Positions 13,949 through 41,903 are shown, counted from the stretch's first letter. The stretch is DNA of 64,000 bases from an uncultured delta proteobacterium (GCA_963802945.1 CAWDKY010000053.1:96001-160000), one strand, 5' to 3'. Program-made: numbers and translations. Notes: generated by a model not told the origin, from the letters alone.

Positions 13949-14214
13949 CCCAAAACCTCCCTTTGATAATCTGATTATTTTTAACCTCTAATCCCTGGTG
14001 ATGTCAATTGTTACTTTTACAAGTATGATATATATAATATTTATAGGGTTAATAATATTTGAAAACCCCCGTATAACCTTTTTTTGAAGATAAAAAGGGG
14101 GATTAAAAATGGAAACCTCTGCTTTCAGACGACTTATTTTTTATGACGTGAATACTCTATTAATGAAAGACAGGTTTTAACCCTGCTGTTATTGAAGGGT
14201 GACATCGAAGAGTA

Positions 14215-14285
14215 CTTCCTTGAAGTCATGCAAGTTCCATTTGTGAAAAATCCGAAGAGTACAAACAATAATCGATAATGGTGTG
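14215..14285 (+). repeat. Fragment of the island spacer element (copy A)
   Basis: cttccttgaagtc...ttccatttgtgaaaaatccgaagagtacaaacaataatc matches 21466-21525 and 25825-25860 (gaagagtacaaacaataatc is identical to the latter). Confidence 0.6.
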
Positions 14286-14389
14286 GCTTTCCCTCCAAAA
14301 GAATCTTTTTTAATCCTTGAGCACGAAAAAAGTTCTTTTTTTCTCCTTGGTCAACGATCCCTTTTTAATCATGCTTCGGGTAACATTTT

Positions 14390-14630
14390 TTATGAGGCAA
14401 TCCTACCTCCTTACCCAACAGAGAAACCGGGATCCCTTCTTATAACCTCAACTTCACACATCGAAGCTTTAACTTAAACCCATACCGCTTCCCATAACGG
14501 CTTTCTTTCCTTTTACCCCTCTTCTTTACTTCTTCAACTTCTTCCATTGGCACACCCCTTTTCCCTTCTCAGGAGTGTCACCCATTTTATCCTTCTTTTT
14601 TATCTCATGATCTGGTAGTGTAATTATCAC
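14390..14630 (-). mobile_element. Truncated transposase N-terminus (HTH-like; IS481/IS3-like remnant)
   Basis: ATG 14547: MEEVEEVKKRGKRKESRYGKRYGFKLKLRCVKLRL*EGIPVSLLGKEVG resembles the RYxxEFKLxxV start of transposase HTH domains. Contains an in-frame stop. Confidence 0.45.
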
Positions 14631-14788
14631 CGGAATAAACTCCGTCGAGAGATTTAGGGGTCGGGACGTGAAGATTTGGATCGGTGGAATAGTGAGTTTT
14701 TTAAAGGGAGGAAAATACTGTTACTGAATCCATGGGGTGAACAGGGATACCCAGTTTTAGATCACAATATGGAATGGGAGGCGTTATC

Positions 14789-16411
14789 ATGGCTACCACA
14801 ACAAAGAATCGACTCGAAGGAGTTCTGCCTCGCCTGTCCGACTACGTGAAACGGGCGGCCGCGCGGGATCCGAACAGACCAGCGTTCATCTATCATGACA
14901 AGGAATACTCCTATGCCGAGTTTGTAAAGGACGCTCAACAGATGGCCAAGTACTTACTTAAAATAGGAGTTAAAAAGGGTGACCGGTTGGGCTATGTTAT
15001 GAACGGTCGCCCGGAGTTCTTCTGTTTTTACATGGCCGCTTCCATGGTCGGAGCGATTATCGTCGGCATGGGCACGCGTTTCACAGCACATGAGATGGAG
15101 TATGTTCTTAACAACTCCGGAGCCAGCCATGTACTGACACTGTACGGGTTGGGAGACGTGGCAAACTTCCAAGAACGGCTGGGGCAAGCTCTGACCAAGT
15201 GCTCCTCGGTCCAACAAGTATGGGTAGTGGGCGGACCGGCGGAACTTCCCGACGCCCTGACCTTGAATGAGATCATGCAGGCCGACTACTCGGCTTATGA
15301 CCAGGCCCTGAAGGACAGAGAAGCCCAGGTCGGACTGGACGACGGTCTGCTTATTGTTTACACATCCGGCACCACCGGACAGCCCAAGGGCGCATTGTTG
15401 ACCCACAGGAGCGTGGTCTGTCAATCGCTGGTGCTGATTGACGAGCTTGGTGCCCCCACCGGGATTACCCCGGACGACAAGCTACTGCACCACGTCCCGG
15501 TCAACCATGTAAGTGGAGCCACCGAGCTTGGAGCAGCTCCCCTCATAGCCGGCTCCACCTTGGTCGTTATCGACCAATTTAGTCCGGTGGAAACCCTGGA
15601 GAAGATGCAGAAGTATAAGGTGACCATATTCGCTGGTGTCCCGACCATGTATGTTATGGAATTCAATCTGCCCAACTTCAAGGACTATGATCTATCCTCC
15701 GTGCGTTTCTGCATGGTTGGCGGATCAATGGCCCCCAAGGAAATCCTGGAGAAAATGAAGGAACTCACTCCCTACTGCAACAATCCGCTAGGATTGACGG
15801 AGACCGCCGGTCTTATCACGTATAGTGACATAGGGACCAGCGTTGATAATCTTAACAAGACCGTGGGTAAGTGCGCCCCTGAGTTTCAGATGAAGCTGGT
15901 CGACAGGAATCGCAAGGAAGTCCCCCGGGGCACTCCGGGAGAAATCGCCTACCGCGGCCCCACGGTTATCAAGGAATACTACAAGATGCCGGAAGCCACC
16001 GCTGCCGCCATTGACCAAGATGGTTGGCTGTATTCCGGAGATGTGGGCATCATTGACGAAAATGGCGACCTGCGACTGGTGGGCAGATCCAAGGAAATGT
16101 ACATCACCGGTGGCGAGAATATATACCCGGCGGAAGTCGAAGAGTATATATCCAGGTATCCCGGCGTCGCACTGGTGGCACTGGTTCCGGTTCCCCACGA
16201 CGTAATGGGTGAAGTGGGACGTGCCTACATTGTACCGAAGCCCGGCGCAACCCTGGATGACAAGGCCATACAGGAATACCTGAAAGAGTTCCTGGCCCCT
16301 TACAAGATTCCCCGGCAGTATGTGTTCAAAGAGTCGTTGCCCATGACCACCCTAGGCAAGATCGAGAAAAAGGTTATTCGCCGGGAATTGGAGAAAGAAC
16401 TGCAGAAATAG
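14789..16411 (+). CDS. Acyl-CoA synthetase (AMP-forming, class I adenylate-forming)
   Basis: YTSGTTGQPKG, GLTETAG, WLYSGDVG, GGENIYPAEVE, LAPYKIPR, GKIEK. Confidence 0.92.
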   Translation: MATTTKNRLEGVLPRLSDYVKRAAARDPNRPAFIYHDKEYSYAEFVKDAQQMAKYLLKIGVKKGDRLGYVMNGRPEFFCFYMAASMVGAIIVGMGTRFTAHEMEYVLNNSGASHVLTLYGLGDVANFQERLGQALTKCSSVQQVWVVGGPAELPDALTLNEIMQADYSAYDQALKDREAQVGLDDGLLIVYTSGTTGQPKGALLTHRSVVCQSLVLIDELGAPTGITPDDKLLHHVPVNHVSGATELGAAPLIAGSTLVVIDQFSPVETLEKMQKYKVTIFAGVPTMYVMEFNLPNFKDYDLSSVRFCMVGGSMAPKEILEKMKELTPYCNNPLGLTETAGLITYSDIGTSVDNLNKTVGKCAPEFQMKLVDRNRKEVPRGTPGEIAYRGPTVIKEYYKMPEATAAAIDQDGWLYSGDVGIIDENGDLRLVGRSKEMYITGGENIYPAEVEEYISRYPGVALVALVPVPHDVMGEVGRAYIVPKPGATLDDKAIQEYLKEFLAPYKIPRQYVFKESLPMTTLGKIEKKVIRRELEKELQK

Positions 16412-16437
16412 CGGAACGAAACCCATCCGCAAGTTAC

Positions 16438-16476
16438 AAGCCGCCGGAGTTCACTAGAGCCCCCGGCGGCTTTATT
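16438..16476 (+). terminator. Intrinsic terminator
   Basis: AAGCCGCCGG-agttcactagagcc-CCCGGCGGCTT followed by TATT, just after the synthetase stop. Confidence 0.65.
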
Positions 16477-16484
16477 ATCAACAT

Positions 16485-16885
16485 AGCCTCCCTGGTAAGA
16501 AATCTGTCCCCGGACCCGTCATCGCCATCCAAACCTTTGGGGACTTCTTGGGATTCAACTCCCACGGCCATGCTCTGGTTACCGACGGCTGTTTCTCCAA
16601 GAAGGGCTTATTTAAGGTCGCCCCAGCTGTTAAGCTTAGATATCTGGAAAAAATCTTCAGATCCAAAGTCCTTACCTTGCTACTCTCCAAAGGTAAGATC
16701 ACTCCCGACCATATTAATCTGCTGAAATCCTGGAAACATTCCTGGTTTCAGGTCTTTTGTGGCCCAAGAATTCTGCCCAGAAAAAAAGAGGCCATGGAAA
16801 ATCTGGCCCGCTATATCATCCGAGCCTCTTTCTCGCTGGAACAACTGACCTATCTCCCGGAAGATTCCCGGATCATCTTCAGCCT
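16485..16885 (+). mobile_element. IS91-family (HUH/Y2) transposase internal fragment
   Basis: PGPVIAIQTFGDFLGFNSHGHALVTDGCF...HSWFQVFCGPRI...MENLARYIIRASFS: HxH motif and LARY..R catalytic-Tyr motif. N- and C-termini are absent. Confidence 0.85.
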
Positions 16886-16904
16886 CGTCTGACCTTGAGG
16901 CAGT

Positions 16905-17470
16905 TTGAAGATATCAAACGGTAATAGATGATTCAAACACATGTTCCCGTCGAAGATTCGTAGGTGTAATCAACAGACATAAAAATATCATTAAATATTA
17001 ATTGGTTAGGAGAATAGGTTCCGGGATCTCAACGCCTGTCTCGTTTAAATTTCCCGGACCTTTTTCCTTCCATTGCATAGCTATCCATTTCCGTTTGAAA
17101 TCTTCATAAGGGATGTACGCCCCCAATGCTTTAAATCAGCAATTTGATGAGTAAACTTCTTGGCCAATAGGTAATTTGGTTTGTTGATTACCATTAGAAA
17201 TCTGGCGGGTTTGGTGGTCTTAATTGGGAAAAACGTGGGCTACTTTTTAGGGGATCGGAGACTATTTGCAACATTTCTTCCTAAAATGTTGATTTTAAAT
17301 TTTGGCTCTTTATACCATATTACAAACGGTAATTAATCTGTAAAGTCCAGCCCTGCATAGTCCAGTTTTCTTAAGAAGACATTCTCCTTGACTCCTTGCC
17401 TTCCCGAACTGTTTTTCTTCTTGATCATGACATTATATTATCTTATACTCTTTCCATTCAAAAGAAAAGT
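16905..17470 (+). repeat. Island spacer element (copy B)
   Basis: gatatcaaacggtaat...ttcgtaggtgta...ggtcttaattgggaaaaacgtgggctactttttaggggatcggagactat...acatttcttcct...ttatactctttccattcaaaagaaaa, colinear with 21131..21710. Confidence 0.75.
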
Positions 17471-17497
17471 TTTGCAAATTTTTTAAGGAGCCCCAAC

Positions 17498-17625
17498 ACG
17501 TTTTCACTAAAAAACATTGTGGTCCCCACAGATTTTTCCGAATATTCGAACAAGGCACCGCAAAACGCAATAGACATCCCTAAACAATTCAAAAGCAAAA
17601 TCTATCTACTACATGTGGTCGGAAG
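17498..17625 (+). pseudogene. Universal stress protein N-terminal remnant
   Basis: AAGGAG RBS, then ACG in place of a start codon, then FSLKNIVVPTDFSEYSNKA...KIYLLHVV (USP signature). Truncated. Confidence 0.7.
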
Positions 17626-17740
17626 AGTAAGATTGAGGGGGGCGATTCGGGCGGTCGATATGTCTTGATCCTGGCATTTGTTACTTTGAAAATGTCTTTT
17701 GAGCTTTAACAGTGAAAACACATTGATGAGGAGGGAATCA

Positions 17741-19021: not shown

Positions 19022-19049
19022 ATGACGTGCCGGGATGAGCCAATATTGC

Positions 19050-19310
19050 GCCTGAGAATATTGGCTCATTATTCGACCGGTTTGGGATGATGGGCGTCGA
19101 TGAGCCGGAAAGGGAATTGTTACTACCATTACAACGCCCATATGGAAAATTTCTGGAGTGTCCTGAAAAATGAACAGGTAAATCATTTTCGTCATGCAAC
19201 CAAACAAGAAGCTATACAGGACATTACACAGTACATCGGGATTTTTTATAACCGGCAAAGAAGGCAGGACAGGCTCGGGTTTCTATCTCCCGCCTTTGTT
19301 GAACGATAAT
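19050..19310 (+). mobile_element. IS3-family integrase-core (OrfB) C-terminal remnant
   Basis: SMSRKGNCY..NAHMENFWSVLKNE...YIGIFYNRQRRQDRLGFLSP. Confidence 0.85.
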
Positions 19311-20957: not shown

Positions 20958-21110
20958 ATGAATCTTGATTTTACATCGGAACAAAACATGCTGAGGTTCG
21001 GGCCGCAAAGAAGAGTCCCCGGAAAATCTGAAAAAGGCCGAGTCATGTTTCGGGAGATGGGCTTGGATTATTGGCTGGCTAAGGCTCAGGAGACGCTGGC
21101 GATGCTGTAG
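20958..21110 (+). pseudogene. Chimera: first 13 codons of a partner acyl-CoA dehydrogenase joined to a TPR-protein C-terminal tail
   Basis: AGGAGG RBS, MNLDFTSEQNMLR (ACAD-type start), then ...GRVMFREMGLDYWLAKAQETLAML* (typical end of adenylate cyclase/AAA/TPR proteins). Confidence 0.65.
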
Positions 21111-21130
21111 AGAATTTGAGGAGTTTCCAT

Positions 21131-21710
21131 TGCACATTTCAAACAGTAATCGTTGATTTTTAGGACTGGCTTCTTAAAACATTTGTAGGTGAATTCAATT
21201 AAGGTCGAAATAGTATTAAAAATTAGCATGTTATGAGAAAGCTGTTGAACCTAATATTTTCTTTCCTGTTTTATTTTCCAATCCTATATCTCTCCATTTC
21301 TTCTCCTATTTATTTCCCTTTGAACTCTTTATAGAATGGCTATCATTTACTGAAAATAATCGGATTGTCCTATTAATTACTATTTGAACTCTGAAGATTT
21401 TGGGGGTCTTAATTTGAAAAAATGAGGACTACTTTTGAGGGGACCGGGGACTATCTGAAACATTTCTTCCTGAAATCCTCAACCTTCCATTTTTGAAAAA
21501 ATACAAGAATTCAATCCGTAATCGTTATCAAGTCGGCAGGAAATTTAAACTATCGGCAAACCAACCAGAAACCCCCACCCAACCCATCCCTTGAATTCCA
21601 GAGTGACTTCTAGGACTCCCAGCTTCCTTACCATTGCTTTCCGCCTTAGTTTTCTCCTTGACACTCTCTTTTTCTTGTCCTATATTTTTTCCAACAAAAA
21701 ACAAACCCTT
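21131..21710 (+). repeat. Island spacer element (copy C, most complete)
   Basis: gcacatttcaaacagtaatcgttgatt...ttgtaggtgaat...ggactacttttgaggggaccggggactat...aagtcggcaggaaatttaaac...aaccaaccagaaaccccca...ctcccagcttcc...TTGACA-17-TATATT. Confidence 0.8.
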
Positions 21711-21788
21711 CAAGAAGTAACATGTCCAGACCATGTCGCAAGTTAATCATTTAAAGAACGATGTTAAAATAAAGTATTAGCCGGAAAG

Positions 21789-22379
21789 ATGGTGGTTGAA
21801 ATGATTAAAAAAATACGATTTATTGTTGTACTGGTAATTTTTCTCATGTTTTTATTGGGTATATCCTTAATTTTCTCATTTCAGCAAACTTCTGCTCCTG
21901 TACCTCCCAATATTACCATTGAACCGCCCGATCCGTCTTTGCCGGCCGAAGCTAAACTCCTCACGGGGAAGTGGGCTGGAAAGTGGAATTCAAGATACGG
22001 GTGGGATTGTTTACTGTATGTGGAGAAAGTTGACAAAGATTCCGCCCAAGTCGTCTATTCCTGGGGAGAGTATAATACCTCAAAAATGAGTTGCCATTGT
22101 GACCCGAATTGGGCAAAGGTACAAAAGTCCAAAGTAATCTATCAGGAAGGGAAGGCAACCATTGAATTTATTACACCCATTCTCCAGAGTAAGCACTTTA
22201 AAAAGGAAACGCATACGTTGTCCGGGGAAGACGAAGGATGGGTCAGTAACAGTCCTAAAGGCCACGCTCATTACGATTTTTCTTTTTCAGTAGAAAAAAC
22301 CGAACCTAATACAATGAAAGGACATTTCATAAGTGGGAAAAACAGCTATCTATTTATTAAAATGAAAAAGATCGATTAA
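21789..22379 (+). CDS. Hypothetical membrane-anchored/secreted protein
   Basis: 196-aa ORF with N-terminal hydrophobic helix, LTGKWAGKW beta-rich segment and a CHC motif. Confidence 0.65.
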   Translation: MVVEMIKKIRFIVVLVIFLMFLLGISLIFSFQQTSAPVPPNITIEPPDPSLPAEAKLLTGKWAGKWNSRYGWDCLLYVEKVDKDSAQVVYSWGEYNTSKMSCHCDPNWAKVQKSKVIYQEGKATIEFITPILQSKHFKKETHTLSGEDEGWVSNSPKGHAHYDFSFSVEKTEPNTMKGHFISGKNSYLFIKMKKID

Positions 22380-22408: not shown

Positions 22409-22500
22409 TGAGGTGGTCCCCAAAAATTGGACAATTTGATAAGCTCTGATAAACAGGGAGTGTCGATGGAATAATAAACCCCATTTCTCAAGAAAGAGGT
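22409..22500 (+). mobile_element. Solo IS3-type terminal inverted repeat/left end
   Basis: TGAGGTGGTCCCCAAAAATTGGACAA (TG start). A near-identical copy is at 35386. Confidence 0.6.
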
Positions 22501-22932: not shown

Positions 22933-23162
22933 GGATTCCTCCTGAATTGTTGTTGAGTTAGGTTTTGGGCTTCCAATAAGATTAGTTTAGAGAGGCAGTT
23001 TTGTCAAATCACTCAATTATTTGTATTAACCCGCGCACAGTGATGAGATTTATAGCGAGACACATGGTAAAAACTTAAATGTGAAAGTCAGGCTTTGACT
23101 ATACAATCATTGTCAAGTTTGATGGTGACTTCTTCCTTTTAAAGAACATATTTAAGGAAAAA

Positions 23163-24548
23163 TCATCTACAGGCGGATTTTCTCTTTTCTCTTCTAAAAA
23201 ATAAATACACCAGGATACCGGCACCAATGGTGACCAGACCTCAAAGGGAAGTGATTGGCCGGTTCTGTATGGAAAAGTAGGCGATCCACAGGTTGCCGGC
23301 GATGAAAATGATCGGTGTAACCGGATAGCTGAATGTTTTGTAAGGAGACACTAAGGCTTCTTTTTTAAGTCTGAGGGTCACTAAGCCCAAAACAGTCAGC
23401 ATGGCAAAGAGGGCCAGCGTGAACCCGATATAAATAAGGAGCTTTTCAAAAGAGGAGGTTAAGATAAACAGGATAGCAATCGCCGCTTGTAGGAAAATGG
23501 AAAAGGCCGGTGTTTTATATTTCGGATTGATCCGACCGAAAAGTTTGAAAAAGACATTGTCTTTGGACATGGCGTAATAAACCCGTGGCCCGGTCAGAAT
23601 CATGGCGCTAAGGGCCGACAAGATGCCTACGGCAATGGCCCCGCCGAAGTATTTCCCAATATTTTTACCGAAGAGAGAAGAGGCCGATGTTGCTCCGACT
23701 TCCAGGACACCGCTCATCTGGCCGGCCGGGAGGGCATAGATGTAAATTACATTGAGGAGCAGGTATAATATTAAAACCAACAACGTGCCGGTGAACAGGG
23801 CGACGGGAATATTTCTGGACGGATTTTTGATTTCACTGCCGAGATAAGCTGCGGCATTCCAGCCGCTATAAGCAAAAGATACAAAAATAAGGGATACGGC
23901 AAACTTGCCCTGAAACAAAGACGTCAACGAAAAATCAATGGAGAAATGAGATAAGGATCCGGTTCCGAACAGGAAACCGCCAGTAATGAAGAGAACAATG
24001 ATTAATATTTTAAATAAGGTCAATGTGTTTTGAACCCGACTGCCGACCTTGATGCTGTGATAATGAACCAACGAAAGGATAACGATAGCAGCAATCGCTG
24101 TTAGATTGATCGGGGAAACCGTCAATAGGGTAAGGCCGGAAATAGTTAGACTGAATTGGGGATGGGCAGGAAGGGGAAAGATGCTGCCGCTGTAAGTGGC
24201 AAAGGCGATGGCCGATGCGGCAATGGGAGCGGAAAAACCCACCAACAGAGATATCCAGCCAGAAAGGAAGGCCACTAACTTTCCAAAACTTTCCCGCAAA
24301 TAAACATATTCGCCCCCGGCTTCAGGAAAAGCAGCCCCCAATTCCCCATAACAAAGAGCGCCGCAGAGGGCGAAAATACCTCCTATTAGCCAGCAGAGCA
24401 GCAAAATCATCGGATGCCCCAATTCTTGAATGATGAAGCCCGAGGTGGTGAAAATACCCGTCCCTATCATATTGGCTACAACCAGAACTGTGGCCGTGAA
24501 AATACCGATCTCCCTTTTAAGACTTTGGTTATTCATGTAATTTTTCAC
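23163..24548 (-). CDS. APC-family amino acid permease with an in-frame TGA at 23241 before the last TM helix
   Basis: MIGTGIF, YGELG..FPEAGGEY, FAYSGWN, EIKNP, GPRVYYAM. Reading past TGA gives GLVTIGAGILVYLFFRREKRK. Confidence 0.85.
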
Positions 24549-24582
24549 AACGGCTCTCTTCTAAAAAGTGGAGTATAATAGT

Positions 24583-25554
24583 CTAATGTTTTTTAGTGAT
24601 CACGGCATGTGCTATTCGAGCACCAGACACGTCACCGGCAATCGCCCCGCTACTGTCTATGAGATACATCTTTTGCATCTCAAAACCTCCTACGTCCGAA
24701 AGAAGCTCAAGCCTCCTATCTTTTAAAAAGTCTTCTAATTCCCAGGGATTAATGCCATATATATAAGGCTCGCCATGACTTGCAACGACTCTTGCTAAAG
24801 TGTACGCCGATCGCTCAAAAACAATACTATGAAGATAAGATTTAGTGATGTATTCAAAAATTACTGAGCTTTCAGGTGCACTTTGTTCAGCAATAAATTT
24901 AAGTGTCCCGTCTACTGCTTCTTTAGTCAAATACATCGTAACACCTTCCCATATGAAAAGTGTTTTTTTTGTTTTATCATAACCCACCTTCATTAGCGCG
25001 TCTTCCAGGCTTTGCTTCTCAAAGTCAATGGCAATATAGATGACATAGGAGGGTAGCGCCCCGAATATTTTAGCTACGATTTCTTTCTTCCGTCCAATCA
25101 TTGCCGGCATATCCAATTCAAAGAATTTTACATTGGGCATGGTATCATGAAAACGATACGCTCGAGTATCATAACCAGCACCCAAATTAACAACCTGTTT
25201 TATTCCTTTGGCGCCTTCGTCTTTCAAAACAGCATCAATACGTTTAGTTCTCGCTGTCATCCAATAATACCCAGAACCGACGAGAAATTTTAGTTTCGGT
25301 GATCTCTTGCGTATATCTTCTATTGTGACCTTAGATTTATCCCAAAAATCAGGACTGATAAACTTTTCAGCAAGATAGTCGGGATTGCGTATTTTCTCGT
25401 CTTGTTCATAAGCGCCAACTGCGCGTGAGAAAGCAGCCAATTCGGCTGTCCAGGATGGTTTTTCCGGACCAATTGCATAAGAAGGGGCAGGTGCTAAAAA
25501 CAGAAAAATTTGGAATATTGCGGAAAGCATGCTGATTATGAGAAGGTTATACAT
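24583..25554 (-). CDS. SAM-dependent methyltransferase (LCM/O-methyltransferase type) with N-terminal signal-like peptide
   Basis: ARTKRID, QVVNLGAGYDTRAYR, FELD, IDF and FIWEGVTMYL motifs. Hydrophobic N-terminus ending APSYA. Confidence 0.85.
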   Translation of the reverse strand: MYNLLIISMLSAIFQIFLFLAPAPSYAIGPEKPSWTAELAAFSRAVGAYEQDEKIRNPDYLAEKFISPDFWDKSKVTIEDIRKRSPKLKFLVGSGYYWMTARTKRIDAVLKDEGAKGIKQVVNLGAGYDTRAYRFHDTMPNVKFFELDMPAMIGRKKEIVAKIFGALPSYVIYIAIDFEKQSLEDALMKVGYDKTKKTLFIWEGVTMYLTKEAVDGTLKFIAEQSAPESSVIFEYITKSYLHSIVFERSAYTLARVVASHGEPYIYGINPWELEDFLKDRRLELLSDVGGFEMQKMYLIDSSGAIAGDVSGARIAHAVITKKH

Positions 25555-25769
25555 AAACTCTTTCCTCCTTAATAAAGAAGATTAAACCACCAGCTCTGTT
25601 GTGCGAACCTAATGGGCTCTGCCGGTTAAGGGTGATAAAATCTTCGAAGCCTTAGGTCGGCGGGATTCGCTATTGTGGCTGCTATATTAACGTCTCCCGA
25701 GGGCTTCGTCAAAAGAAAATTAAGAGCCCTGATTCCCTTACAATCTATTTAGATACTCTCCGAGCCGCC

Positions 25770-26040
25770 TCATCTTCTGGTGGTGCGGACTGTTAACTTC
25801 TTTCTGTAATCCTCAAAATTCGATTTTGAAAAAACCAGAAGAGTACAAACAATAATCCTCATCATGGTAGGGAAAAATTTAAACCATTGGCAAACCAACC
25901 AGAGCCCCCACTCAAACCTAAACCCTTGAATTTCAGATAGACTACTCGGATTCTCAGCTTCCTTCCCCTTGCTTTCCGACTTGTTTTCACCTTGACTCAA
26001 TCTTTTTCTTGTTTTATACTCTCCCCATTAAAAAGAAAAG
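25770..26040 (+). repeat. Island spacer element (copy D, 3' half)
   Basis: atttaaaccattggcaaaccaaccagagccccca...gaatttcagatagactactcggattctcagcttcc (EFQIDYSDSQLP)...TTGACT-17-TATACT...aaaaagaaaa. Confidence 0.8.
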
Positions 26041-26108
26041 TCGGATCATTTAAAATCTTTCTTCTCCAGGGTAGGATACATTCAAATTTCAGTAAGGAGG
26101 TATTTGGT

Positions 26109-26810: not shown

Positions 26811-26838
26811 TATCACTTGATAATCCATTAGAACACAA

Positions 26839-26950
26839 GGTGTACTCGTTAAATTCTGTACGGTATGACTATTTTTTAGAAAACTTGTTGAGTTCTTCCC
26901 GAAGTCAGCAAGCCTTCGTTTTGGATAGAACAAAAGAGTTCAACAGTAAT
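26839..26950 (+). repeat. Island spacer element (copy E), cut at its GTAGGTG core by the IS110 left end
   Basis: ggtgtactcgttaaattctgtacggt...cttcccgaag...aagagttcaacagtaatc matches 30540-30560, 35521-35580 and 21466-21522. Confidence 0.7.
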
Positions 26951-27134
26951 CAACGAAAAAAATTGATACTTGCGGGACTTAAAAAGGGCAACGGCACGAT
27001 TTACCCATATTGGGTATATTGGCCAGGGGAAGTTAAACGGAAAGGGGGTATTTGTCCGATTTGTGATATTACAGAGTTAGAGATTTAGCCAAGCTGAACC
27101 CGTTTGATAATATTTTTACATCTATTGAGGGTAC

Positions 27135-27845
27135 TCAGGTCTTTTTTGCTACAACATAATAGAGCGCAACCGTCTCCTTGGAGGGCAGGTACCAAGGCCA
27201 GTCTTCCCCCGTTGGCTGCGTGTCCACGAGATCGATCCAACGAAAAGGCTTGATCAACTCGACACGAAAATGCTCCATAGATCTTCTGGCCATCTCTTGA
27301 ATCTCATGGCGTTTGAACACTACCCGCGCTGGTTTTGCACCTGGCTTGTGCTCAATCACGACGTTGCCACGGAATTCGGTCTGGGTCCCTTTGATCTTAT
27401 ATGTACCGCGCGTATGAAGAGAAAAAATTACTTCTTGTTTCGAAACTCGGGCCAGTTCTTTCAGCGCTCTCTCCACATCCCCTAACAGATAAAATAGCGT
27501 TTCCGCACAGAAGACCCGATCCACCGAGTCATCGGGCATCGGCAGGTGGAGTATATCAGCCAGGACAAGGCACACGTTAGGATAGCCGTTTGCCAATTCT
27601 GCGCTTTTAGCAAGCGCAACAGACGAAAAATCAATGCCAATAAACAAACCGCTTGGGCCACATCTCTTCATTAAATCGTGCAGATAAAAAGTATGTCCGC
27701 AGCCCACATCGCAGATTGTTTCTCCCGGCCTGATCTTCTCAATAGCGAGTTGATAAAAATAGCGGCCAGCTGCCTTTCCCTCCTTGGCTTGATCACTGAA
27801 GATCCTATCCCAGGTTACTCGCGCTTTATCTTCTCCTGACGTCAT
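27135..27845 (-). CDS. Class I SAM-dependent methyltransferase
   Basis: ICDVGCG, GIDFS, ADILHLPMPDDSVD, ALKELARV. Confidence 0.85.
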   Translation of the reverse strand: MTSGEDKARVTWDRIFSDQAKEGKAAGRYFYQLAIEKIRPGETICDVGCGHTFYLHDLMKRCGPSGLFIGIDFSSVALAKSAELANGYPNVCLVLADILHLPMPDDSVDRVFCAETLFYLLGDVERALKELARVSKQEVIFSLHTRGTYKIKGTQTEFRGNVVIEHKPGAKPARVVFKRHEIQEMARRSMEHFRVELIKPFRWIDLVDTQPTGEDWPWYLPSKETVALYYVVAKKT

Positions 27846-27992
27846 TTCCTCTTTATAACCTCAGGATGGTTAGCAAGTCTACAACCGACGTAACCGATTT
27901 GAGGTTTACTTCCCGCGTCTTGGCAGGCGAGATATCCAATCAAAAGAATTCTTGCCTTCTGCCTGGCACCGTTATTGCCTTGAATCCGTACG

Positions 27993-28397
27993 TCATTTAT
28001 GATGGCAGGTATTGCACCGTTCAAAGTTTTGCTGATGATGACAAGCAAGAAAGCAAGTATCTACATTGACCTTGGACAAATCGATTTTCCCCTTGGGTGG
28101 AATCGGATGCGTACTGTGACAGTCGGTACAATCCGGCACATTCTCGACCTTCTTTTCGTTATGTGGTATGAACCGGTGTGGGTTGATCATTTCGCCACTG
28201 GATGCCTTAAAGGACGGCTCCTTGGAAGCTAGTTTGTCAAATGATCCCCCGTGGCAGGTCAAGCAGGCTGTTGGTCCTTTTGCCGCTTCGTTGGCAGCAT
28301 CGGCAAACTTTATGGAGTGAGCCAGATATCCACCGCGAATGGAGGCCAAAACAAGAAATGCCCCGCACAGGACCAGTCGTTTAGCTTTTGTTTTCAT
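27993..28397 (-). CDS. Small periplasmic tetraheme cytochrome c
   Basis: Signal peptide; CLTCH, CTDCH, CFLACH (CX3CH), CNTCH; NPH motif. Confidence 0.85.
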   Translation of the reverse strand: MKTKAKRLVLCGAFLVLASIRGGYLAHSIKFADAANEAAKGPTACLTCHGGSFDKLASKEPSFKASSGEMINPHRFIPHNEKKVENVPDCTDCHSTHPIPPKGKIDLSKVNVDTCFLACHHQQNFERCNTCHHK

Positions 28398-28612
28398 GCT
28401 GTTTGTTCAGTCTAATGTTTTCGTCCTCAATTGGAGCAAGTCAATGGTCTAAGGTGAGGGTTGGAATAGGGTGGACCATGGGTTTTCAGGCCCACCCTAT
28501 CTCGATTTATAGCCGGTTATCAGAGGCATCCGAGGTGTTAAAAAACTTACAGTATTCGCTCGCGCCTCATCAGCCGACAAGTTCCAGGGATCGTGTCCCA
28601 AAGAGTGACCAA

Positions 28613-30199
28613 TTACTTCCAGGGTTTTTCAGCCGCTGCATTCCGTCCGGCAATACGACCAAAGGCCAGGCACTCGCCGATATTTCCGCCGCCGTTATAC
28701 AGGAACGAATACATCGACCCCAATTCACCGGCACTGTAAAGTCTTGGGATGGGCTTATCGTCGGGATCGACAATTTGCGCCTTGGCGTTGCGCTTGGGAC
28801 CGCCTTGCGTGTTCAAAATGCCGAGCGAGAGCCTCATAGCATAAAACGGCCCTTGTTTGATCGGCCCCAAGTTAGTCGCGGATCTGCCGAATTCGGCGTC
28901 AACGCCTTTGTTGCAGGCATCGTTCCATTTGTCCACCGTCTTCGTGAGGTTCTTGGGGTTTACATTGATTTTTGCGGCTAGGTCGGCGATGGTATCCGCC
29001 TTTTGGATCCAGCCCTTGGCAACCTCATCACTACAGTCTTTGCTGAACTGCATCTTTTTCACAACAGACGCCCAACCCATCACCCTGGCAAGCCCAAAGG
29101 GTGACCCGGCCTTGTTATCCATGATGAGGTAGGCAGGCACGGGCAGCGGAGTCGGACGCCAGACAGAGTTGAGTTTCATATAGCCGTGGTTAGAGCGGGT
29201 GTCTTCGTCGAAATAACGATTGCCGTCTCCATCCACATAGATATAACCCGCTAAAGGCTTCCCATCCACCTTGGCGGTATTTGGAAAACATAATAACCCA
29301 AAATCGGTATTCGGGACCTTAAAAGCTGGCATCATTCCGGATTGGGCGCTCATGTGCCAGAGATTTGCGCCGACCTTGATGGCCATCTTTACACCGTCGC
29401 CGGTATTGTATGGTGTGCCGAACGGCGCTATTTCCGGGATTGCGTTATAGTCACGAATCATCTGCGGATCGTTCTCATAACCACCGCAGGTCATGACAAC
29501 GGCCCGCTTGGCTTTAATAGCAAATGGCTTGCCGCCACGCTCCGCGATCACGCCTAAGATATCTCTTGTCTTCGGATCCTGGACAAGGTTTTTCGCGGCA
29601 GTGGTAAAAAGAACCTCGATCCCTCTTTTGTTCACCGCAGCCTGAAGAACTTTCCATAGCCGTTCCTGCCCCCACCCTCCTGGGGATGCGAAATAGGTCT
29701 TAGATGAATCAGAGCCCGGAAATTCTGGAAATTCGGGTGAGCAGAATGCGCTCTGCGGATTAGCAAGCGACGGGTTACCTCCAATCCTTTTGACCCAATC
29801 GGCGTTTTTTCCCATCTCATCGGCCCAGACTGTCAGTATGTCATCAGGAATTGGCATTCCATCCGCCATCGCCTTCATGTAGGTAATGGCTTTGCCAGCC
29901 GGTGTAGGGTTAAACCAAAGATTCCCCGCTACGCGGGTGTTGCCGCCCTCTTCACCTTCGGGAGCCTTCTCGATTATAAGAACCTTTGTTCCGGCATCCG
30001 CTGCGGTAATAGCAACGGACGCACCTGCACCTCCGTAACCAATAACGACTACATCGACGGCCTTATCCCACTTTTTGGGAATAGAAACAGCGGCCTCCGT
30101 CGGGGTAGTGCTCAACGCGGTGGTAGCCGCGACAGCCGCACTTGCAATGGCGGCATCCTTGAGGAATTCTCTACGCGTCATCTTGTTCTTTTTTAACAT
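28613..30199 (-). CDS. Tat-exported FAD-dependent oxidoreductase (flavocytochrome c / FAD_binding_2 family)
   Basis: TRREFLK Tat motif, DVVVIGYGGAG, GGNT, NTGDG, TQGGP, IPRLYSAGE. Confidence 0.88.
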   Translation of the reverse strand: MLKKNKMTRREFLKDAAIASAAVAATTALSTTPTEAAVSIPKKWDKAVDVVVIGYGGAGASVAITAADAGTKVLIIEKAPEGEEGGNTRVAGNLWFNPTPAGKAITYMKAMADGMPIPDDILTVWADEMGKNADWVKRIGGNPSLANPQSAFCSPEFPEFPGSDSSKTYFASPGGWGQERLWKVLQAAVNKRGIEVLFTTAAKNLVQDPKTRDILGVIAERGGKPFAIKAKRAVVMTCGGYENDPQMIRDYNAIPEIAPFGTPYNTGDGVKMAIKVGANLWHMSAQSGMMPAFKVPNTDFGLLCFPNTAKVDGKPLAGYIYVDGDGNRYFDEDTRSNHGYMKLNSVWRPTPLPVPAYLIMDNKAGSPFGLARVMGWASVVKKMQFSKDCSDEVAKGWIQKADTIADLAAKINVNPKNLTKTVDKWNDACNKGVDAEFGRSATNLGPIKQGPFYAMRLSLGILNTQGGPKRNAKAQIVDPDDKPIPRLYSAGELGSMYSFLYNGGGNIGECLAFGRIAGRNAAAEKPWK

Positions 30200-30489
30200 T
30201 TGGATTTCTCCTTTCTGCAATTCGTTCATTGATATAAAGACAACATCTTGCCTACAATTTACGTGGCAACAATAGCATCCTTTATCCGTCCACGATCATG
30301 TCAGCTTGGAGAACTTGGAGTGAGTGGAGTGATTTAAAGTAATTGTAAATATAGGTTTCGGCATTGTCAATAAAATAAACAAGGTTGTTTAAGGTGCATA
30401 TTTGAGTAATGTGCCTGCACTTTATTCGGGTTAAAAGATGGACCAGAATCATCCTAACTTGCACACCCCCTAAGCTTAACAATATCGAT

Positions 30490-30790
30490 TAATAATTTCT
30501 ATTTTTCTCATAAACCATAACTTCACGCTTCGTAGATATTCGTTAAATTCGGTACGGTGAGGCCATGTTTGAAAAAATTGAGGATTTCTCCCGTATTCTT
30601 CAAAATTCTCTTTTTGAAAAACCTAAGACTTCAAATAGTAATCCTCATCAAGTCGGCAGGAGATTTAAACCATTGGCCAATCAACCAGAAATCCCCACCC
30701 AAACCTAAAGCCCCCGAACTTCAGATAGACTACTTGGAATCCCAGCTTCCTTTCTATGAGGAAACCCAAGATTAGGATTTCGGAGTTTCC
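30490..30790 (+). repeat. Island spacer element (copy F)
   Basis: ttcgtagatattcgttaaattcggtacggt...taatcctcatcaagtcggcaggagatttaaaccattggccaatcaaccagaaatccccaccc...ELQIDYLESQLP. Confidence 0.75.
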
Positions 30791-31202
30791 TCATATCATT
30801 GAACCCCTCTATCTTGCCTTATGCCCCAATCTTGGCTCATACGCCAAAAGCCGCAAATCCCTCAGATCCAGCGGTTCCATTGAGTGGGTGCTGGAGAGGT
30901 TGTCCATTTAAAGGTAGGTGGAAGCCCTAGAGGATGGATAATGAATTCAGGCTTGGTGACGCCCAAAGTGGAACAGACCAGCCCTTCCAGGGCCTGTAGT
31001 AGCAACCCAAAAAGTAATTTGGCTGGAAAGCTACAGTTTTTTAAACGAAACTAATAATCTCGGATACTCACGGGCCTTTTTTCTAGCCGAGGCCTTGGGC
31101 TGGTTCCGTCACCGGCAACAATAGACCTTGAAAAAAGTAAACAAAAAGTATAACTTTAAAATATGTATTAATATATAATACAGCGTAGTTAGGAGAAATA
31201 CA

Positions 31203-35385: not shown

Positions 35386-35460
35386 TGGGGTGGTCCCCAA
35401 AAATTGGACAAGGTGATAAGCCCTGAGTTAGCCCAAAGGAAGCGGCGATGTCCAACCATT
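35386..35460 (+). mobile_element. Solo IS3-type left end (second copy)
   Basis: TGGGGTGGTCCCCAAAAATTGGACAA..tgataagc.ctga, as at 22409. Confidence 0.6.
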
Positions 35461-35464
35461 TCTC

Positions 35465-35600
35465 CCATATTTCCATCCGTACTCGTTAATTTTTCGGTTT
35501 ATCTGTTTAAAGCATTAGTAGGTGTACTCGAGGAATTCGCTAAAGTAAGACCATTTTCGAGAAAACTTGAGGGCTTCTTCCTGTAATGTTGTTTTTCTTA
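35465..35600 (+). repeat. Island spacer element (copy G, 5' part; uninterrupted equivalent of the IS110 site)
   Basis: atatttccatccgtactcgttaatt...cattagtaggtgtactcg...gaccattttcgagaaaacttgagggcttcttcctgtaatgttg. Confidence 0.65.
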
Positions 35601-35719
35601 TTTTATAAATTTATGCAACCTTTCAATCAGAAATAATCAAAAAAGCTGAACTCAAAATTAATATGTGGTACAAGTATTTGGGACAGGTATGCTTCAATAC
35701 AAAATAGCAGGGTGGCGTA

Positions 35720-36173: not shown

Positions 36174-36286
36174 CTTTAAAATAATAATTTATCAAATTAA
36201 GACATTTCAAAGTCGTTTGTTTTCTTCCATTAATATAAAAAAGGAGGTTCTTATCAATAAAGAATACCTGTGACGAAAAATAATCC

Positions 36287-36334
36287 TTGACAAACAATAA
36301 ATGTGTGGATATATATATGCATAAGAACATATAT
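36287..36334 (+). promoter_or_regulatory. sigma70 promoter overlapped by a palindromic operator (likely PadR autoregulation)
   Basis: TTGACA (36287), 17 bp, TATATA; inverted repeat ATATATG-N8-CATATAT at 36313-36334. Confidence 0.6.
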
Positions 36335-36357
36335 TCACCATAACATAATGAGAAAAA

Positions 36358-36927: not shown

Positions 36928-37061
36928 GAAAACAACTTGTGAATTTTAAAATTATCCGGGAGGAGTTATTTCATCATTTGGAGACTTTAGATTTAAAAAT
37001 ATTTTTGGAAGAAATAATATCTGTTCAATAATTGCATCACATAAATCATGAGGAGGATGAA

Positions 37062-38126: not shown

Positions 38127-38149
38127 ACTATGACGGCTTCTCAAAATGA

Positions 38150-38335
38150 GGCGTGCATTCCGGACCGCTGCCGGCTACAGTTGGCCGAACTGCTCAGGCC
38201 ATAAGCCACCTCGACTTTTCCAACGCTGAGTTCCATGACATGAAAATGCAGCCATCCCTGGAAAGAGCATTGAGGCATAAAGAGATATTAAAGGAATAAG
38301 ATTATGGCCTTGCCTTTTTACGCACATTTCAATCG
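38150..38335 (+). pseudogene. TPR-protein C-terminal remnant followed by GCACATTTCAA
   Basis: RLQLAELL...AISHLDFSNAEFHDMKMQPSLERALRHKEILKE*, homologous to 41390..41656. Confidence 0.7.
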
Positions 38336-38383
38336 GAGCATTGCCTGGTTGGAACGCATCAAATCTTAATAAGGAGCAAGGAA

Positions 38384-39748: not shown

Positions 39749-39807
39749 TCAAGGGTTGGAATGCCGTTACCCATAACAACCTGTTTGGATGTATGGCAGG
39801 GCGATGA

Positions 39808-39877
39808 GCATCTTCAGCAAGTAGGAGACACAAAGGGCTTTTTTTAGTTTGTAGATATTAGTATTGGCCTGCGTGGA
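39808..39877 (+). repeat. ~70-bp direct repeat, copy 1
   Basis: gcatcttcagcaagtaggagacacaaagggctttttttagtttgtagatattagtattggcctgcgtgga, about 4 differences from 41328..41398. Confidence 0.9.
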
Positions 39878-39956
39878 CGACTTTCTCACAGGGAATTTTG
39901 GCCTGATTTTTGGCCGTCGTTAATACTTAATATTTGGGTAAAAGGAGGAATTAAAT

Positions 39957-41186: not shown

Positions 41187-41320
41187 AAAAGAAAGTCCTT
41201 GGTCAACTCCAGGCATCTTTATTATGAGCATTAACCTTGCCAAGCGCAGAGACATGTTACAAAAATTATCTAATGTGAAATGGGATATTTTGGTTTTTGA
41301 TAAAAGCCATTTGTTATTGA
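41187..41320 (+). pseudogene. SNF2/helicase internal fragment
   Basis: SPWSTPGIFIMSINLAKR...WDILVFDKSHLL, resembling a decayed WDxxxxDEAH motif. Confidence 0.45.
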
Positions 41321-41327
41321 ATGGTGT

Positions 41328-41398
41328 GCATCTTCAGCAAGTATGAGACACAAAGGGCTTTTTTTTAGTTTGTAGATTTTAGTATTGGCCTGGGTGGA
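41328..41398 (+). repeat. ~70-bp direct repeat, copy 2
   Basis: Near-identical to 39808..39877; runs directly into the TPR remnant. Confidence 0.9.
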
Positions 41399-41656
41399 GC
41401 GGCGGCTCTGCTGGGCCGATATGAAGAGGCCCGGAACCATTACCAGGAAGCCATCAAGGCCTGCACAGAGATGAAGTTTAGGCCGGAGCTGGCGCTGAGT
41501 CGCCTTGAGCTTGCGGAGTTGTTGCTGAAGCATTATCCGCAGGAAAAGTCGGAGGCTATCGCCGCCTTGGACTTCGTCATCCCCGAATTCCGTGACATGA
41601 AGATGAACACCTACCTGGAACGGGCGCTCAGACACAAAGAGATATTAAAGGCATAA
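41390..41656 (+). pseudogene. TPR-protein C-terminal remnant (adenylate cyclase/AAA/TPR type)
   Basis: LGGAAALLGRYEEARNHYQEAIKACTEMKFRPELALSRLELAELLL...EFRDMKMNTYLERALRHKEILKA*. No N-terminus. Confidence 0.75.
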
Positions 41657-41677
41657 GGCTTTGACTCTGCTTTTTTA

Positions 41678-41790
41678 ATGCACATTTCAAAGGTGAAAGC
41701 TTCAAAAAATATTTTAAAGCTCTCCAGCAAATTCTATCCCGATCAAATAAGCTCCTAAAACTTATAAAATTGGTTATGCCCCTCTATTTT
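41678..41790 (+). repeat. Degenerate start of the island spacer element (probable right island boundary)
   Basis: tgcacatttcaaa...aaacttataaaattggttatg resembles 21132... and 16993 (aaatattaattggttagg). Confidence 0.45.
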
Positions 41791-41903
41791 AAGGGTCTCT
41801 AGCCTTGACCTTTAGATTTTCCTAACTTTATTTCAGTCCAAGACATAAATTTAAAGTCCTATTAGTCGGGCGTGATATTTAAAAAAATCAATCGAAGTAA
41901 CTA

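What the first reader, a model, noticed from the sequence alone, without database searches (positions are those of the whole stretch)
14100..41800. 27-kb cassette-like island punctuated by one recurrent, same-orientation non-coding element: candidate uncharacterised gene-capture array
Seen: between the glgC pair and yjbQ lie unrelated 1-4-gene modules. At their junctions are degenerate copies of one element, all on the + strand: ~14215, 16905-17470, 21131-21710, 25770-26040, 26839-26950, 30490-30790 and 35465-35600, with start-only traces at ~38321 and ~41679. Shared blocks, not all in every copy: ACATTTCAAACRGTAATCGTTGATT; (C/T/A)GTAGGTG(T/A)A; GGACTACTTTT..GGGG..CGGRGACTAT; TTCTTCCTG.AAT; AAGAGT.CAAA..TAATC; AAGTCGGCAGGA.ATTTAAAC; AACCAACCAGA..CCCCA; a terminal TTGAC-17-TATACT..AAAAGAAAA. 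Genes are often cut next to these junctions (ACAD partner, USP, TPR tails, IS91 fragment). Inference: the element marks repeated insertion or capture events, like an integron array but with non-attC sites. The GGACTA direct repeats resemble arm-type sites of tyrosine recombinases. No intact recombinase is in the window, so it would act in trans.
Basis: partly seen in the sequence, partly recalled or inferred. Interest (0 to 1): 0.85.

Follow-up and report, generated by a model that had tools for sequence, protein, structure and literature searches.

The report
Leftover ends of an IS91-type jumping gene
The repeated "element" between the gene modules is the decayed tail end of a rolling-circle insertion sequence (IS91 family) that litters this genome, so the island is a known kind of rearrangement hotspot, not a new gene-capture machine.

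Summary
The repeats are real, all on the + strand, and lie at synteny breaks. They are not an uncharacterised recombination site.

One intact copy (1.7 kb, 444-aa TnpA) lies on another contig. Genome-wide there are about 180 fragments. These include 127 copies of the last 89 nt but only 1 copy of the left end. That terminal unit carries a sigma-70-like promoter pointing outward. In 111 of 127 copies the next gene downstream is co-oriented.

The glgC-yjbQ interval holds different genes in all five genus relatives examined. The junctions also hold IS3 debris and truncated USP and TPR genes.

Closest precedents are the IS801 right-end "miniature" fragments and the ISCR1 outward promoters. The integron-like and tyrosine-recombinase readings are not supported. 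An ISCR-like capture role remains possible but unshown.

An earlier report of this scan (e1-4369229) reached the same IS91-end reading on other DNA of this genome.

The parts
12671..13948 (-). glgC-type gene, the conserved left flank of the island. The island starts at about 14021.
   Evidence: Pfam NTP_transferase. Syntenic at 75-94% nt identity in 12 of 12 genus relatives, with homology ending at about window 14020.
14214..14282 (+). Short IS91-family fragment covering only the start of the abundant 'R' unit (blocks D/E).
   Evidence: 77% identical to 25796-25868, E 2.7e-6; family D7.
16467..16880 (+). IS91-family transposase fragment, residues 148-285 of the intact 444-aa TnpA.
   Evidence: tblastn 83% aa identity. 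85% nt identity to C25:40798-41208. Pfam Y2_Tnp. NF033538 partial match.
16905..17393 (+). Variant 3' region of the IS ('L' part, blocks A-C) plus decayed R.
   Evidence: 62% identical to 21130-21522. In G010:C25 the same sequence follows TnpA residue 382 directly.
17394..17476 (+). Terminal 89-nt unit, the right (oriIS-side) end of the IS, with an outward promoter-like site (TTGATC-17-TATACT).
   Evidence: Terminal-unit HMM E 9.8e-11; promoter scan site 17421-17449.
17510..17628 (+). N-terminal stump of a universal stress protein gene, cut at 17628.
   Evidence: Pfam Usp positions 3-39 of 141. The unit plus this USP start recurs at C15, C72 and C29, always ending at 17628 in window coordinates.
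19100..19309 (+). IS3-family transposase C-terminal fragment.
   Evidence: Pfam rve_2; NF033516 positions 305-367 of 369.
21130..21629 (+). L part plus R part of the IS. R holds the remnant of TnpA residues 378-427.
   Evidence: tblastn 21503-21634, 48%. Alignment to the C25 IS. The sharp left edge of R lies near 21460.
21630..21710 (+). Terminal 89-nt unit with TTGACA-17-TATATT; the next gene starts at 21789.
   Evidence: HMM E 4.1e-14. Promoter scan 11 of 12. Homology of the downstream gene to G005 starts at 21734.
22409..22449 (+). IS3-family left-end fragment.
   Evidence: 90% identical to 35386-35426. The same motif heads intact IS3 copies at C17:420127 and C45:7231.
25665..25963 (+). 5'-truncated IS body: TnpA residues 317-334 and 396-425.
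   Evidence: tblastn; 63% identical to C25:40380-40706.
25964..26048 (+). Terminal 89-nt unit with TTGACT-17-TATACT.
   Evidence: HMM E 1.9e-16; promoter scan 10 of 12.
26838..26951 (+). Internal piece of the L part; no IS terminus.
   Evidence: 71% identical to 30537-30643 and 76% to 35520-35581.
30537..30800 (+). L-middle plus R up to TnpA residue 441; lacks the terminal unit.
   Evidence: tblastn residues 397-441, 62%. 81% identical to C25:40332-40458. No terminal-unit hit.
35386..35620 (+). IS3 left end fused to the start of the L part.
   Evidence: The same fusion recurs at about 15 genomic sites.
38190..38299 (+). C-terminal stump of a TPR-protein gene; a different repeat family from the IS.
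   Evidence: 73% identical to 41553-41690; translation.
41378..41656 (+). C-terminal 92 residues of a TPR-protein gene.
   Evidence: Translation. Sub-threshold TPR_12 match, 26.5 bits against a 30.1 cut-off. Copies in G010 and G005.
41974..42390 (+). yjbQ (UPF0047), the conserved right flank. The island ends at about 41954.
   Evidence: Pfam. Homology to G008, G012 and G005 resumes at about 41955-41972.

Best explanation
The recurrent element is the 3' portion of an IS91-family insertion sequence, a HUH-type rolling-circle transposon. The intact form is 1.7 kb. It has a 131-bp left end, a 444-aa TnpA gene and a 230-bp right end.

In the island it survives as seven old, decayed, 5'-truncated or internally deleted fragments, all in one orientation. 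They sit at the joints between accessory gene modules, alongside IS3 debris and truncated host genes.

Three fragments keep the IS's last 89 nt. That unit carries an outward-facing sigma-70-type promoter that reads into the next gene.

Shown:
- Homology of the fragments to the IS.
- The ends of the IS.
- A genome-wide excess of right ends over left ends.
- The orientation bias of right ends towards downstream genes.
- Variability of the glgC-yjbQ interval among relatives.

Inferred:
- The right-end fragments arose as in IS801, by rolling-circle transposition that starts at the right end and stops early, followed by decay.
- They persist because the terminal promoter drives the neighbouring gene.
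- They serve as breakpoints for rearrangement.

The island is therefore a plasticity zone marked by IS remains, not a dedicated capture array.
For: Identity of the element:
- The C25 IS matches window pieces collinearly. TnpA residues 148-285, 317-334, 378-427 and 397-441 are found on the + strand, with nt matches.
- The right terminus aligns.
- TnpA scores 174 bits on NF033538 (IS91 family) against a cut-off of 125. It has Zn_Tnp_IS91 plus Y2_Tnp domains.
- The HxH motif and the Tyr in the LARYIIR stretch are kept in the full-length relatives aligned; only the P-H-x-H columns are invariant across all 10 rows.

Boundaries of the IS:
- They were set by comparing the two intact copies, G000:C25 and G010:C24.
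- No terminal inverted repeats were found.

The L blocks:
- They follow TnpA residue 382 directly in G010:C25 and at C14:130563-130953.

Genome-wide pattern:
- 127 terminal units against 1 left end.
- Coverage of the IS by fragments rises from 0-3 over most of the 5' half (up to about 7-10 just before its midpoint) to 20-31 near the right end.
- 62 of 127 units still have IS body directly upstream, with a median of 168 nt.
- R copies share one left edge.

Promoter reading:
- 114 of 127 units keep TTGNNN-16..18-TANNNT, and the two hexamers are the best-conserved columns.
- The next downstream gene is co-oriented in 111 units, opposite in 15 and absent in 1 (p = 3e-19).
- 105 downstream genes fall into 73 singletons, with a largest cluster of 6.

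The island:
- G008 has 26.4 kb of other genes between glgC and yjbQ and no IS91 debris there.
- G004, G010 and G012 share genes with G008 in this interval.
- G005, 94% identical in the flank, differs at both edges.
- Modules 23161-25573, 27140-30203 and 21734-22379 occur elsewhere in relatives, and their homology stops within about 300 nt of the IS fragments.
- Two G008-interval genes sit in G000 beside another IS91 cluster on C14.

Literature (passages read):
- IS801 makes 229-, 360- and 679-nt right-end fragments in vivo (PMC3189936).
- IS91 ends, target tetranucleotides and one-ended transposition (PMC13181058).
- The ISCR1 oriIS region carries functional outward promoters (PMC6218425).
Against: - No transcription data. 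No RNA run holds this DNA, so promoter activity is inferred only.
- The L part (about 330 nt) is absent from both intact copies. Its origin as a variant 3' region rests on two contiguous examples.
- Gene calls behind the orientation count come from a crude longest-ORF caller.
- The target tetranucleotide and the absence of target duplication could not be established from two intact copies.
- Co-orientation of all 7 island fragments is not fully explained. Four of them lack the promoter unit, so selection for promoter direction cannot account for them.
- Genome-wide, adjacent fragments within 10 kb are co-oriented in 64 of 82 pairs, or 83 of 96 with all queries. The gene-strand baseline is 0.65.
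- This is a metagenome-assembled genome with 6.7% contamination, so some small contigs may be strain variants.
Confidence: 0.78

Rival explanations
1. ISCR-like capture array. The IS right ends are not passive debris. TnpA supplied in trans starts at a right end, runs leftwards into neighbouring DNA (one-ended transposition), and may stop at the next co-oriented right end. Modules bounded by right ends would then move as units, and co-oriented arrays would build up stepwise.
For: - Arrays of co-oriented fragments that keep the right end, with 1-4 kb of unrelated cargo between them, recur in the genome. Examples are C30:272-303 kb, C17:41-55 kb and C15:380-397 kb.
- G007:C165 has three less-decayed copies with 1.6-2.1 kb of cargo between them.
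- The ratio of 127 right ends to 1 left end fits elements that do not need a left end.
- In the C30 array, single-gene blocks that are 90-97% identical in G005 lie on at least 13 different G005 contigs. One pair is in reversed order, and a 3.7-kb extra segment lies between two genes that are adjacent in G000.
- The units are only about 75-85% identical to each other. By inference, this is poor substrate for homologous recombination.
- One-ended transposition occurs at 1-10% in IS91 (PMC13181058).
- Variable co-oriented genes lie on the oriIS side of ISCR1 (PMC6218425).
Against: - No [cargo + right end] unit was found duplicated within the genome, apart from likely strain-variant contigs.
- Four of the 7 island fragments lack the right end and so could not initiate.
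- Breakpoints such as the USP cut at 17628 and the G000/G005 indel at L040 14017-14126 do not coincide with right ends.
- Blocks shared between G000 and G005 keep the unit together with its downstream gene at least as often as with the upstream one.
- The island copies are old, at 62-85% identity.
- Other IS families are also present at the joints.
Confidence: 0.15
2. Integron-like array. The element is a recombination site for a tyrosine or other site-specific recombinase encoded elsewhere.
For: - Same orientation of the copies, position at junctions and variable cargo.
- An earlier scan note (e1-3097153) describes a non-integron repeat-bounded array elsewhere in this genome. I did not test it.
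Against: - The sequence is transposase-gene and IS-end DNA.
- No shared hairpin among the terminal units.
- GGACTA is not enriched.
- 4 PF00589 matches in the genome, none on this contig.
- Copies differ in length from 70 to 1000 nt and in which blocks they contain.
Confidence: 0.02
3. Host regulatory module. The repeat is a native shared promoter and leader of a regulon, and the IS merely picked it up.
For: - Strong conservation of the -35 and -10 hexamers.
- A co-oriented gene follows within 150 nt in 63 of 127 copies.
Against: - The unit forms the exact right terminus of both intact IS copies, and their homology stops at its last base.
- 62 of 127 units are preceded by transposase remnants.
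- The downstream genes are unrelated: 73 singletons among 105.
- The unit also accompanies relatives of this IS in other Thermodesulfobacteriota assemblies.
Confidence: 0.03

Closest known systems
IS91 family insertion sequences (IS91, IS801, IS1294): HUH rolling-circle elements
   Same: - TnpA with Zn_Tnp_IS91 plus Y2_Tnp domains, above the NF033538 cut-off.
- Two unlike ends and no terminal inverted repeats.
- The right end greatly outnumbers the left end.
   Different: - Only 29-31% aa identity to the annotated IS91-family transposases listed from Pseudomonas, Azonexus, Caballeronia and Piscinibacter plasmids.
- The best plasmid match is 54%, in Trichlorobacter lovleyi.
- Target tetranucleotide and activity are unknown.
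- The host is an uncultured Thermodesulfobacteriota lineage.
IS801 'miniature sequences': 229-, 360- and 679-nt right-end fragments made by one-ended transposition (Bardaji et al. 2011, PMC3189936; passages read)
   Same: - Fragments share the right terminus and vary at the left.
- The left edges are recurrent.
- The fragments are associated with variable regions.
- That paper also concludes that most fragments in genomes reflect reorganisation and serve as recombination regions.
   Different: - Here the copy number is far higher: 127 right ends against 1 intact element.
- Copies sit almost always just upstream of a co-oriented gene.
- No mobility has been shown here.
ISCR1 and its oriIS-side outward promoters PCR1-1 and PCR1-2 (Lallement et al. 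2018, PMC6218425; passages read)
   Same: The right-end region carries outward promoter(s). [quoted passage not shown]
   Different: - TnpA is not in the ISCR clade: NF052416 scores 127 bits against a cut-off of 925.
- There is no link to class 1 integrons or resistance genes.
- The intact copies keep a conserved left end.
Integron cassette arrays and CALINs
   Same: Co-oriented repeats lie between unrelated gene modules in a variable locus.
   Different: There is no intI, no attC-type hairpin and no promoterless-cassette logic. The repeat is IS-derived.
Putative mobile promoters ('Promoter reuse in prokaryotes', PMC3575422; only the search listing and the start of the abstract were seen)
   Same: Near-identical promoter segments lie upstream of unrelated genes.
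   Different: Here the source of the promoter is identified as the terminus of a specific IS.

Membership tests
IS91 family IS | Transposase of the IS91 type (zinc-binding N-terminal domain plus Y2_Tnp HUH domain) | tested here: met
   The C25 protein has PF14319 (5e-20) and PF04986 (7.7e-22). NF033538 scores 174.1 bits against a cut-off of 125. The window fragment 16467-16880 matches the same models in part.
IS91 family IS | HUH motif and catalytic tyrosine(s) | tested here: inconclusive
   The P-H-x-H columns are invariant across all 10 aligned sequences; the Tyr in the LARYIIR stretch is kept in the 9 rows that are intact there. Whether a second catalytic Tyr exists could not be judged without a numbered reference. 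The two-tyrosine rule is recalled, not checked.
IS91 family IS | Two functionally different ends and no terminal inverted repeats | tested here: met
   The ends were defined by the G000:C25 and G010:C24 comparison. None of the 25 inverted-repeat pairs joins the two termini.
IS91 family IS | No target-site duplication; a specific tetranucleotide next to the right end | tested here: inconclusive
   Only two intact copies are available. Their flanks diverge right after the shared last bases and show no obvious duplication. No GTTC or CTTG abuts the end in either copy.
IS91 family IS | One-ended products: fragments sharing the right end with variable left ends | tested here: met
   127 right ends against 1 left end. 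Fragment coverage rises towards the right end. The left edges are recurrent. This is a pattern only; the process was not observed.
IS91 family IS | Transposition by a rolling circle | not testable with these tools
   Needs a mating-out or trap assay.
ISCR elements | Transposase within the ISCR clade | tested here: not met
   NF052416 (ISCR clade Ia) scores 126.9 bits against a cut-off of 925. Only this one clade model was on hand.
ISCR elements | Outward promoters at the oriIS side with variable co-oriented genes downstream | tested here: met
   Met in silico only: 114 of 127 units keep the two hexamers, and 111 of 127 have a co-oriented next gene.
Integron / CALIN | IntI-type tyrosine recombinase at or near the array | tested here: not met
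   4 PF00589 matches in the genome, none on contig C53.
Integron / CALIN | attC sites: short imperfect palindromes that fold as hairpins | tested here: not met
   Four terminal units folded as DNA gave z-scores of -0.6, -0.9, -2.4 and +0.5 with no shared structure. The repeats are 70-1000 nt of transposase-derived DNA. No attC model was run.

The most novel reading that the evidence does not exclude
Right-end miniatures of this IS91-family element are a working system, not just fossils. The 89-nt terminus would deliver a promoter to about 100 genes. In co-oriented arrays it would also serve TnpA as both start and stop site, as the origin of a rolling-circle plasmid does. Segments between two termini could then be excised and re-inserted. 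This would be a rolling-circle counterpart of integron cassette shuffling in uncultured Thermodesulfobacteriota. The strongest hint is that the C30 array is reshuffled between two genomes that are 90-97% identical in the shared genes.
Probability: 0.15. Interest if true: 0.7.

Novelty: new member of a known kind. Interest (0 to 1): 0.38.

Why it matters
The finding explains a striking repeat pattern without invoking a new recombination system. It identifies a previously undescribed IS91-family element in an uncultured sulfate-reducer-related lineage.

The less ordinary part is scale. One IS terminus sits upstream of roughly 100 unrelated genes, about 3% of the crude gene set. It outnumbers the other terminus 127 to 1, and it clusters in regions whose gene order differs even between close relatives.

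If the terminal promoter is active, much of this organism's accessory gene expression is wired through transposon remains. If TnpA still acts on the solo ends, the arrays would be a chromosomal analogue of ISCR-driven gene assembly outside the clinical setting.

Three literature searches turned up no report of an IS91-family end amplified on this scale. These searches were narrow.

Tried and rejected
- Rfam at gathering thresholds: 0 matches in the window.
- tRNA/tmRNA scan: none.
- Protein-coding reading of the L part on the minus strand. Two of three ORF peptides (45-52 aa) are unique to this copy. The third recurs only as far as the DNA repeat does. Dropped.
- Replication-linked orientation, as in IS200/IS605. 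Terminal units are co-oriented with the G-rich strand in 36 of 69 cases and all loci in 47 of 89, against 64% for genes. No link.
- Search for [flank + right end] duplicates within the genome. Only overlapping windows, likely strain-variant contigs and one other multicopy IS were found.
- RNA evidence: no RNA holder listed. Only two DNA runs held 5-10% of the words.
- Earlier findings by sequence: nothing.
- Pfam on the 42-aa minus-strand ORF 14443-14568 and on 20998-21153: nothing usable.
- IS left end searched with nhmmer --max at E <= 10: only itself and one weak hit, E 0.009.
- Origin of the L part in an intact element. It is not in either intact copy or in the 68 related loci, apart from two weak hits.


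Full report
OBSERVATION

The region between the glgC pair and yjbQ does contain a recurrent sequence in one orientation. The repeat finder and a self-BLAST of 13-43 kb return only direct matches among 14214-14282, 16905-17470, 21130-21710, 25666/25798-26041, 26838-26951, 30537-30800 and 35520-35581. Identities are 62-80% and E-values run from 1e-44 to 3e-6.

It encodes the C-terminal tail of a TPR protein and shares only an 11-mer with the main element. No Rfam family or tRNA lies in the window.

WHAT THE ELEMENT IS

A Y2_Tnp fragment lies directly before the first copy. The genome has one full-length gene of that family, at C25:40321-41655, encoding 444 aa.
- That locus matches window pieces on the + strand in collinear order.
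- tblastn places TnpA residues 148-285 at 16467-16880 (83%), 317-334 at 25665-25718, 378-427 at 21503-21634, 405-425 at 25901-25963 and 397-441 at 30665-30799.
- The protein has Zn_Tnp_IS91 and Y2_Tnp domains. It scores 174 bits on NCBIfam NF033538 'IS91 family transposase', cut-off 125.
- The P-H-x-H columns are invariant across all 10 aligned sequences, and the Tyr in the LARYIIR stretch is kept in the 9 rows that are intact there.

Comparison with the only other intact copy found in 14 genus genomes (G010:C24, 89% aa) sets the IS at C25:40091-41786. It has 131 bp before the gene and 230 bp after it, and homology stops at the last base of the promoter-like terminal block. The two termini are not inverted repeats.

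The first blocks (A-C, my 'L' part) are absent from both intact copies. However, they follow TnpA residue 382 without a break in G010:C25:3302-3973 and at C14:130563-130953. I read them as a variant 3' region of the same IS. This part is the least secure.

About 15 L copies are fused to the left end of an IS3-family element, as at 35386-35620.

GENOME-WIDE PICTURE

- Using only island-independent queries (the C25 IS and a profile of the last 89 nt), there are 182 fragment loci, 84 on + and 98 on -.
- The 89-nt terminal unit has 127 copies. The left end has one.
- Fragment coverage of the IS climbs from 0-3 over most of the 5' half (up to about 7-10 just before its midpoint) to 20-31 near the right end.
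- 62 of 127 units still have IS body directly upstream, median 168 nt.
- The abundant 'R' form has one shared left edge.
- R copies share features that differ from the intact gene, so already-truncated forms were probably copied.

This is the pattern described for IS801. In that element, 229-, 360- and 679-nt right-end fragments transpose in vivo and made up 26% of IS801 events (PMC3189936, passages read).

THE TERMINAL UNIT AS A PROMOTER (INFERRED)

- 114 of 127 units keep TTGNNN-16..18-TANNNT. The two hexamers are the best-conserved columns.
- The scan tool flags all three window copies.
- With a crude longest-ORF gene set, the next gene downstream is co-oriented in 111 units, opposite in 15 and absent in 1. 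63 start within 150 nt (p = 3e-19).
- Looking upstream instead shows no bias.
- The 105 downstream genes fall into 73 singletons, and the largest cluster has 6 members.

The closest precedent is the oriIS region of ISCR1, whose two outward promoters raise expression of variable downstream genes 13- to 15-fold (PMC6218425, passages read). No RNA data could be found.

THE ISLAND

The flanks are syntenic in all 12 genus relatives for glgC and in G008, G012 and G005 for yjbQ.
- In G008, glgC and yjbQ are 26.4 kb apart. Of the window ORFs of at least 90 aa, only the flanking genes and one weak hit (38%) match that interval. It contains no IS91 debris.
- G004, G010 and G012 share genes with the G008 interval.
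- G005, 94% identical in glgC, diverges at both edges, and its contigs end close to both edges (about 370 and 590 nt beyond). It lacks the island cargo at the nucleotide level.

Three modules occur elsewhere in relatives, and their homology ends within about 300 nt of an IS fragment:
- 23161-25573 in G010, with one gene inverted.
- 27140-30203 in G012.
- 21734-22379 in G005.

Two genes of the G008 interval lie in G000 at C14:131792-133377, next to another IS91 cluster.

The joints also hold an IS3 transposase stump (19100-19309), IS3 end fragments, a USP stump cut at 17628 and two TPR tails.

The island has 5 independent-query loci against a mean of 1.09. 55 of 1643 windows reach that count.

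ORIENTATION

All 7 island fragments are on the + strand (0.016). Genome-wide, neighbours within 10 kb agree in 64 of 82 pairs, or 83 of 96 with all queries. Neighbours further apart agree in 28 of 51.

For terminal units alone the figure is 34 of 45 against a gene-strand baseline of 0.65 (p = 0.09). For promoter-bearing copies, co-orientation therefore largely follows gene direction. For the promoter-less pieces it is not explained. There is no link to GC skew.

AGAINST THE INTEGRON-LIKE READING

- GGACTA is not enriched: 15 found against 16.8 expected.
- None of the genome's 4 tyrosine-recombinase matches is on this contig.
- The terminal units share no hairpin.

WHAT REMAINS OPEN

Co-oriented arrays that keep the right end, with short cargo between copies, recur in this genome. 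One is seen in G007:C165 in a fresher state.

In the C30:270-290 kb array, gene-sized blocks that are 90-97% identical in G005 lie on at least 13 G005 contigs. One pair is in reversed order, and a 3.7-kb extra segment separates two genes that are adjacent in G000. These arrays are therefore highly dynamic.

Whether TnpA drives this (ISCR-like one-ended transposition, perhaps stopping at the next right end), or whether it reflects recombination and decay, cannot be told here. I found no duplicated [flank + right end] units, and several breakpoints lie away from right ends.

An earlier report of this scan (e1-4369229) reached the IS91-end-with-promoter reading on six copies elsewhere in this genome. 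I tested it independently and it holds.

The IS has relatives in many uncultured Thermodesulfobacteriota assemblies. Nine loci from six of those assemblies carry the same terminal unit at E below 1e-10.

VERDICT

This is a real and well-described pattern, with an ordinary explanation at its core: IS91-family remains in a plasticity zone. The less ordinary side-result is the genome-wide scale of right-end amplification upstream of genes.

Noticed in passing
G000:C25:39319-39525 and 41841-42047 (locus L001/L026): The only intact IS, together with a co-oriented 159-aa ORF downstream of its right end, is bracketed by 207-bp direct repeats that are 98% identical. This could be the scar of a circle integrating by homology or of a read-through product.
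   Followed up: partly
G000:C30:270000-289999 (L040) compared with 14 G005 contigs (L109-L122): A 20-kb run of + strand genes has 7 terminal units. Gene-sized blocks that are 90-97% identical in the closest relative are scattered over at least 13 of its contigs. One pair is in reversed order, and a 3.7-kb extra segment lies between two genes that are adjacent in G000.
   Followed up: partly
G007:C165:1-9500 (L039): Three co-oriented, 5'-truncated IS91-family copies that keep the right end lie about 3 kb apart. Between them are an SDR gene (starting 35 nt after the IS end), a cNMP-binding fragment, an rve fragment, a SCO4226-like gene, another transposase stump and a RelE/HTH pair.
   Followed up: partly
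window 46737-46907: A different short repeat of about 170 nt, with more than 20 places in G005 and several in G004, G008, G010 and G012 at 78-90% identity.
   Followed up: no
window 39805-39877 and 41325-41398: A 74-nt direct repeat, 93% identical, containing a T-run. It lies after the PrpD-like gene and after the beta-lactamase-fold gene.
   Followed up: no
window 14400-14620: A non-coding stretch upstream of the AMP-binding gene is 87-91% identical to stretches in G004 (two places) and G011. A 42-aa minus-strand ORF there has no Pfam match.
   Followed up: partly
G000:C15:414842, C17:420566, C27:174728, C32:83552: Four copies of an ORF of 289-341 aa with a weak IS3-model match. Two of them share an 897-nt stretch at 100% identity, so this is probably a currently active IS of another family.
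   Followed up: no
window 11417-12746, minus strand: The second glgC-like gene is read as two overlapping ORFs (11417-12448 and 12378-12746). Both match one gene region in relatives. G008 is also split, but at a different point.
   Followed up: no
window 41389-41691 and relatives: The TPR-tail segment is itself multicopy, with 5 places on G010:C23 and others in G005, G004 and G000:C25. In several genomic copies of the L part, a terminator hairpin and T-run directly precede the same GCACATTTCAA start.
   Followed up: partly
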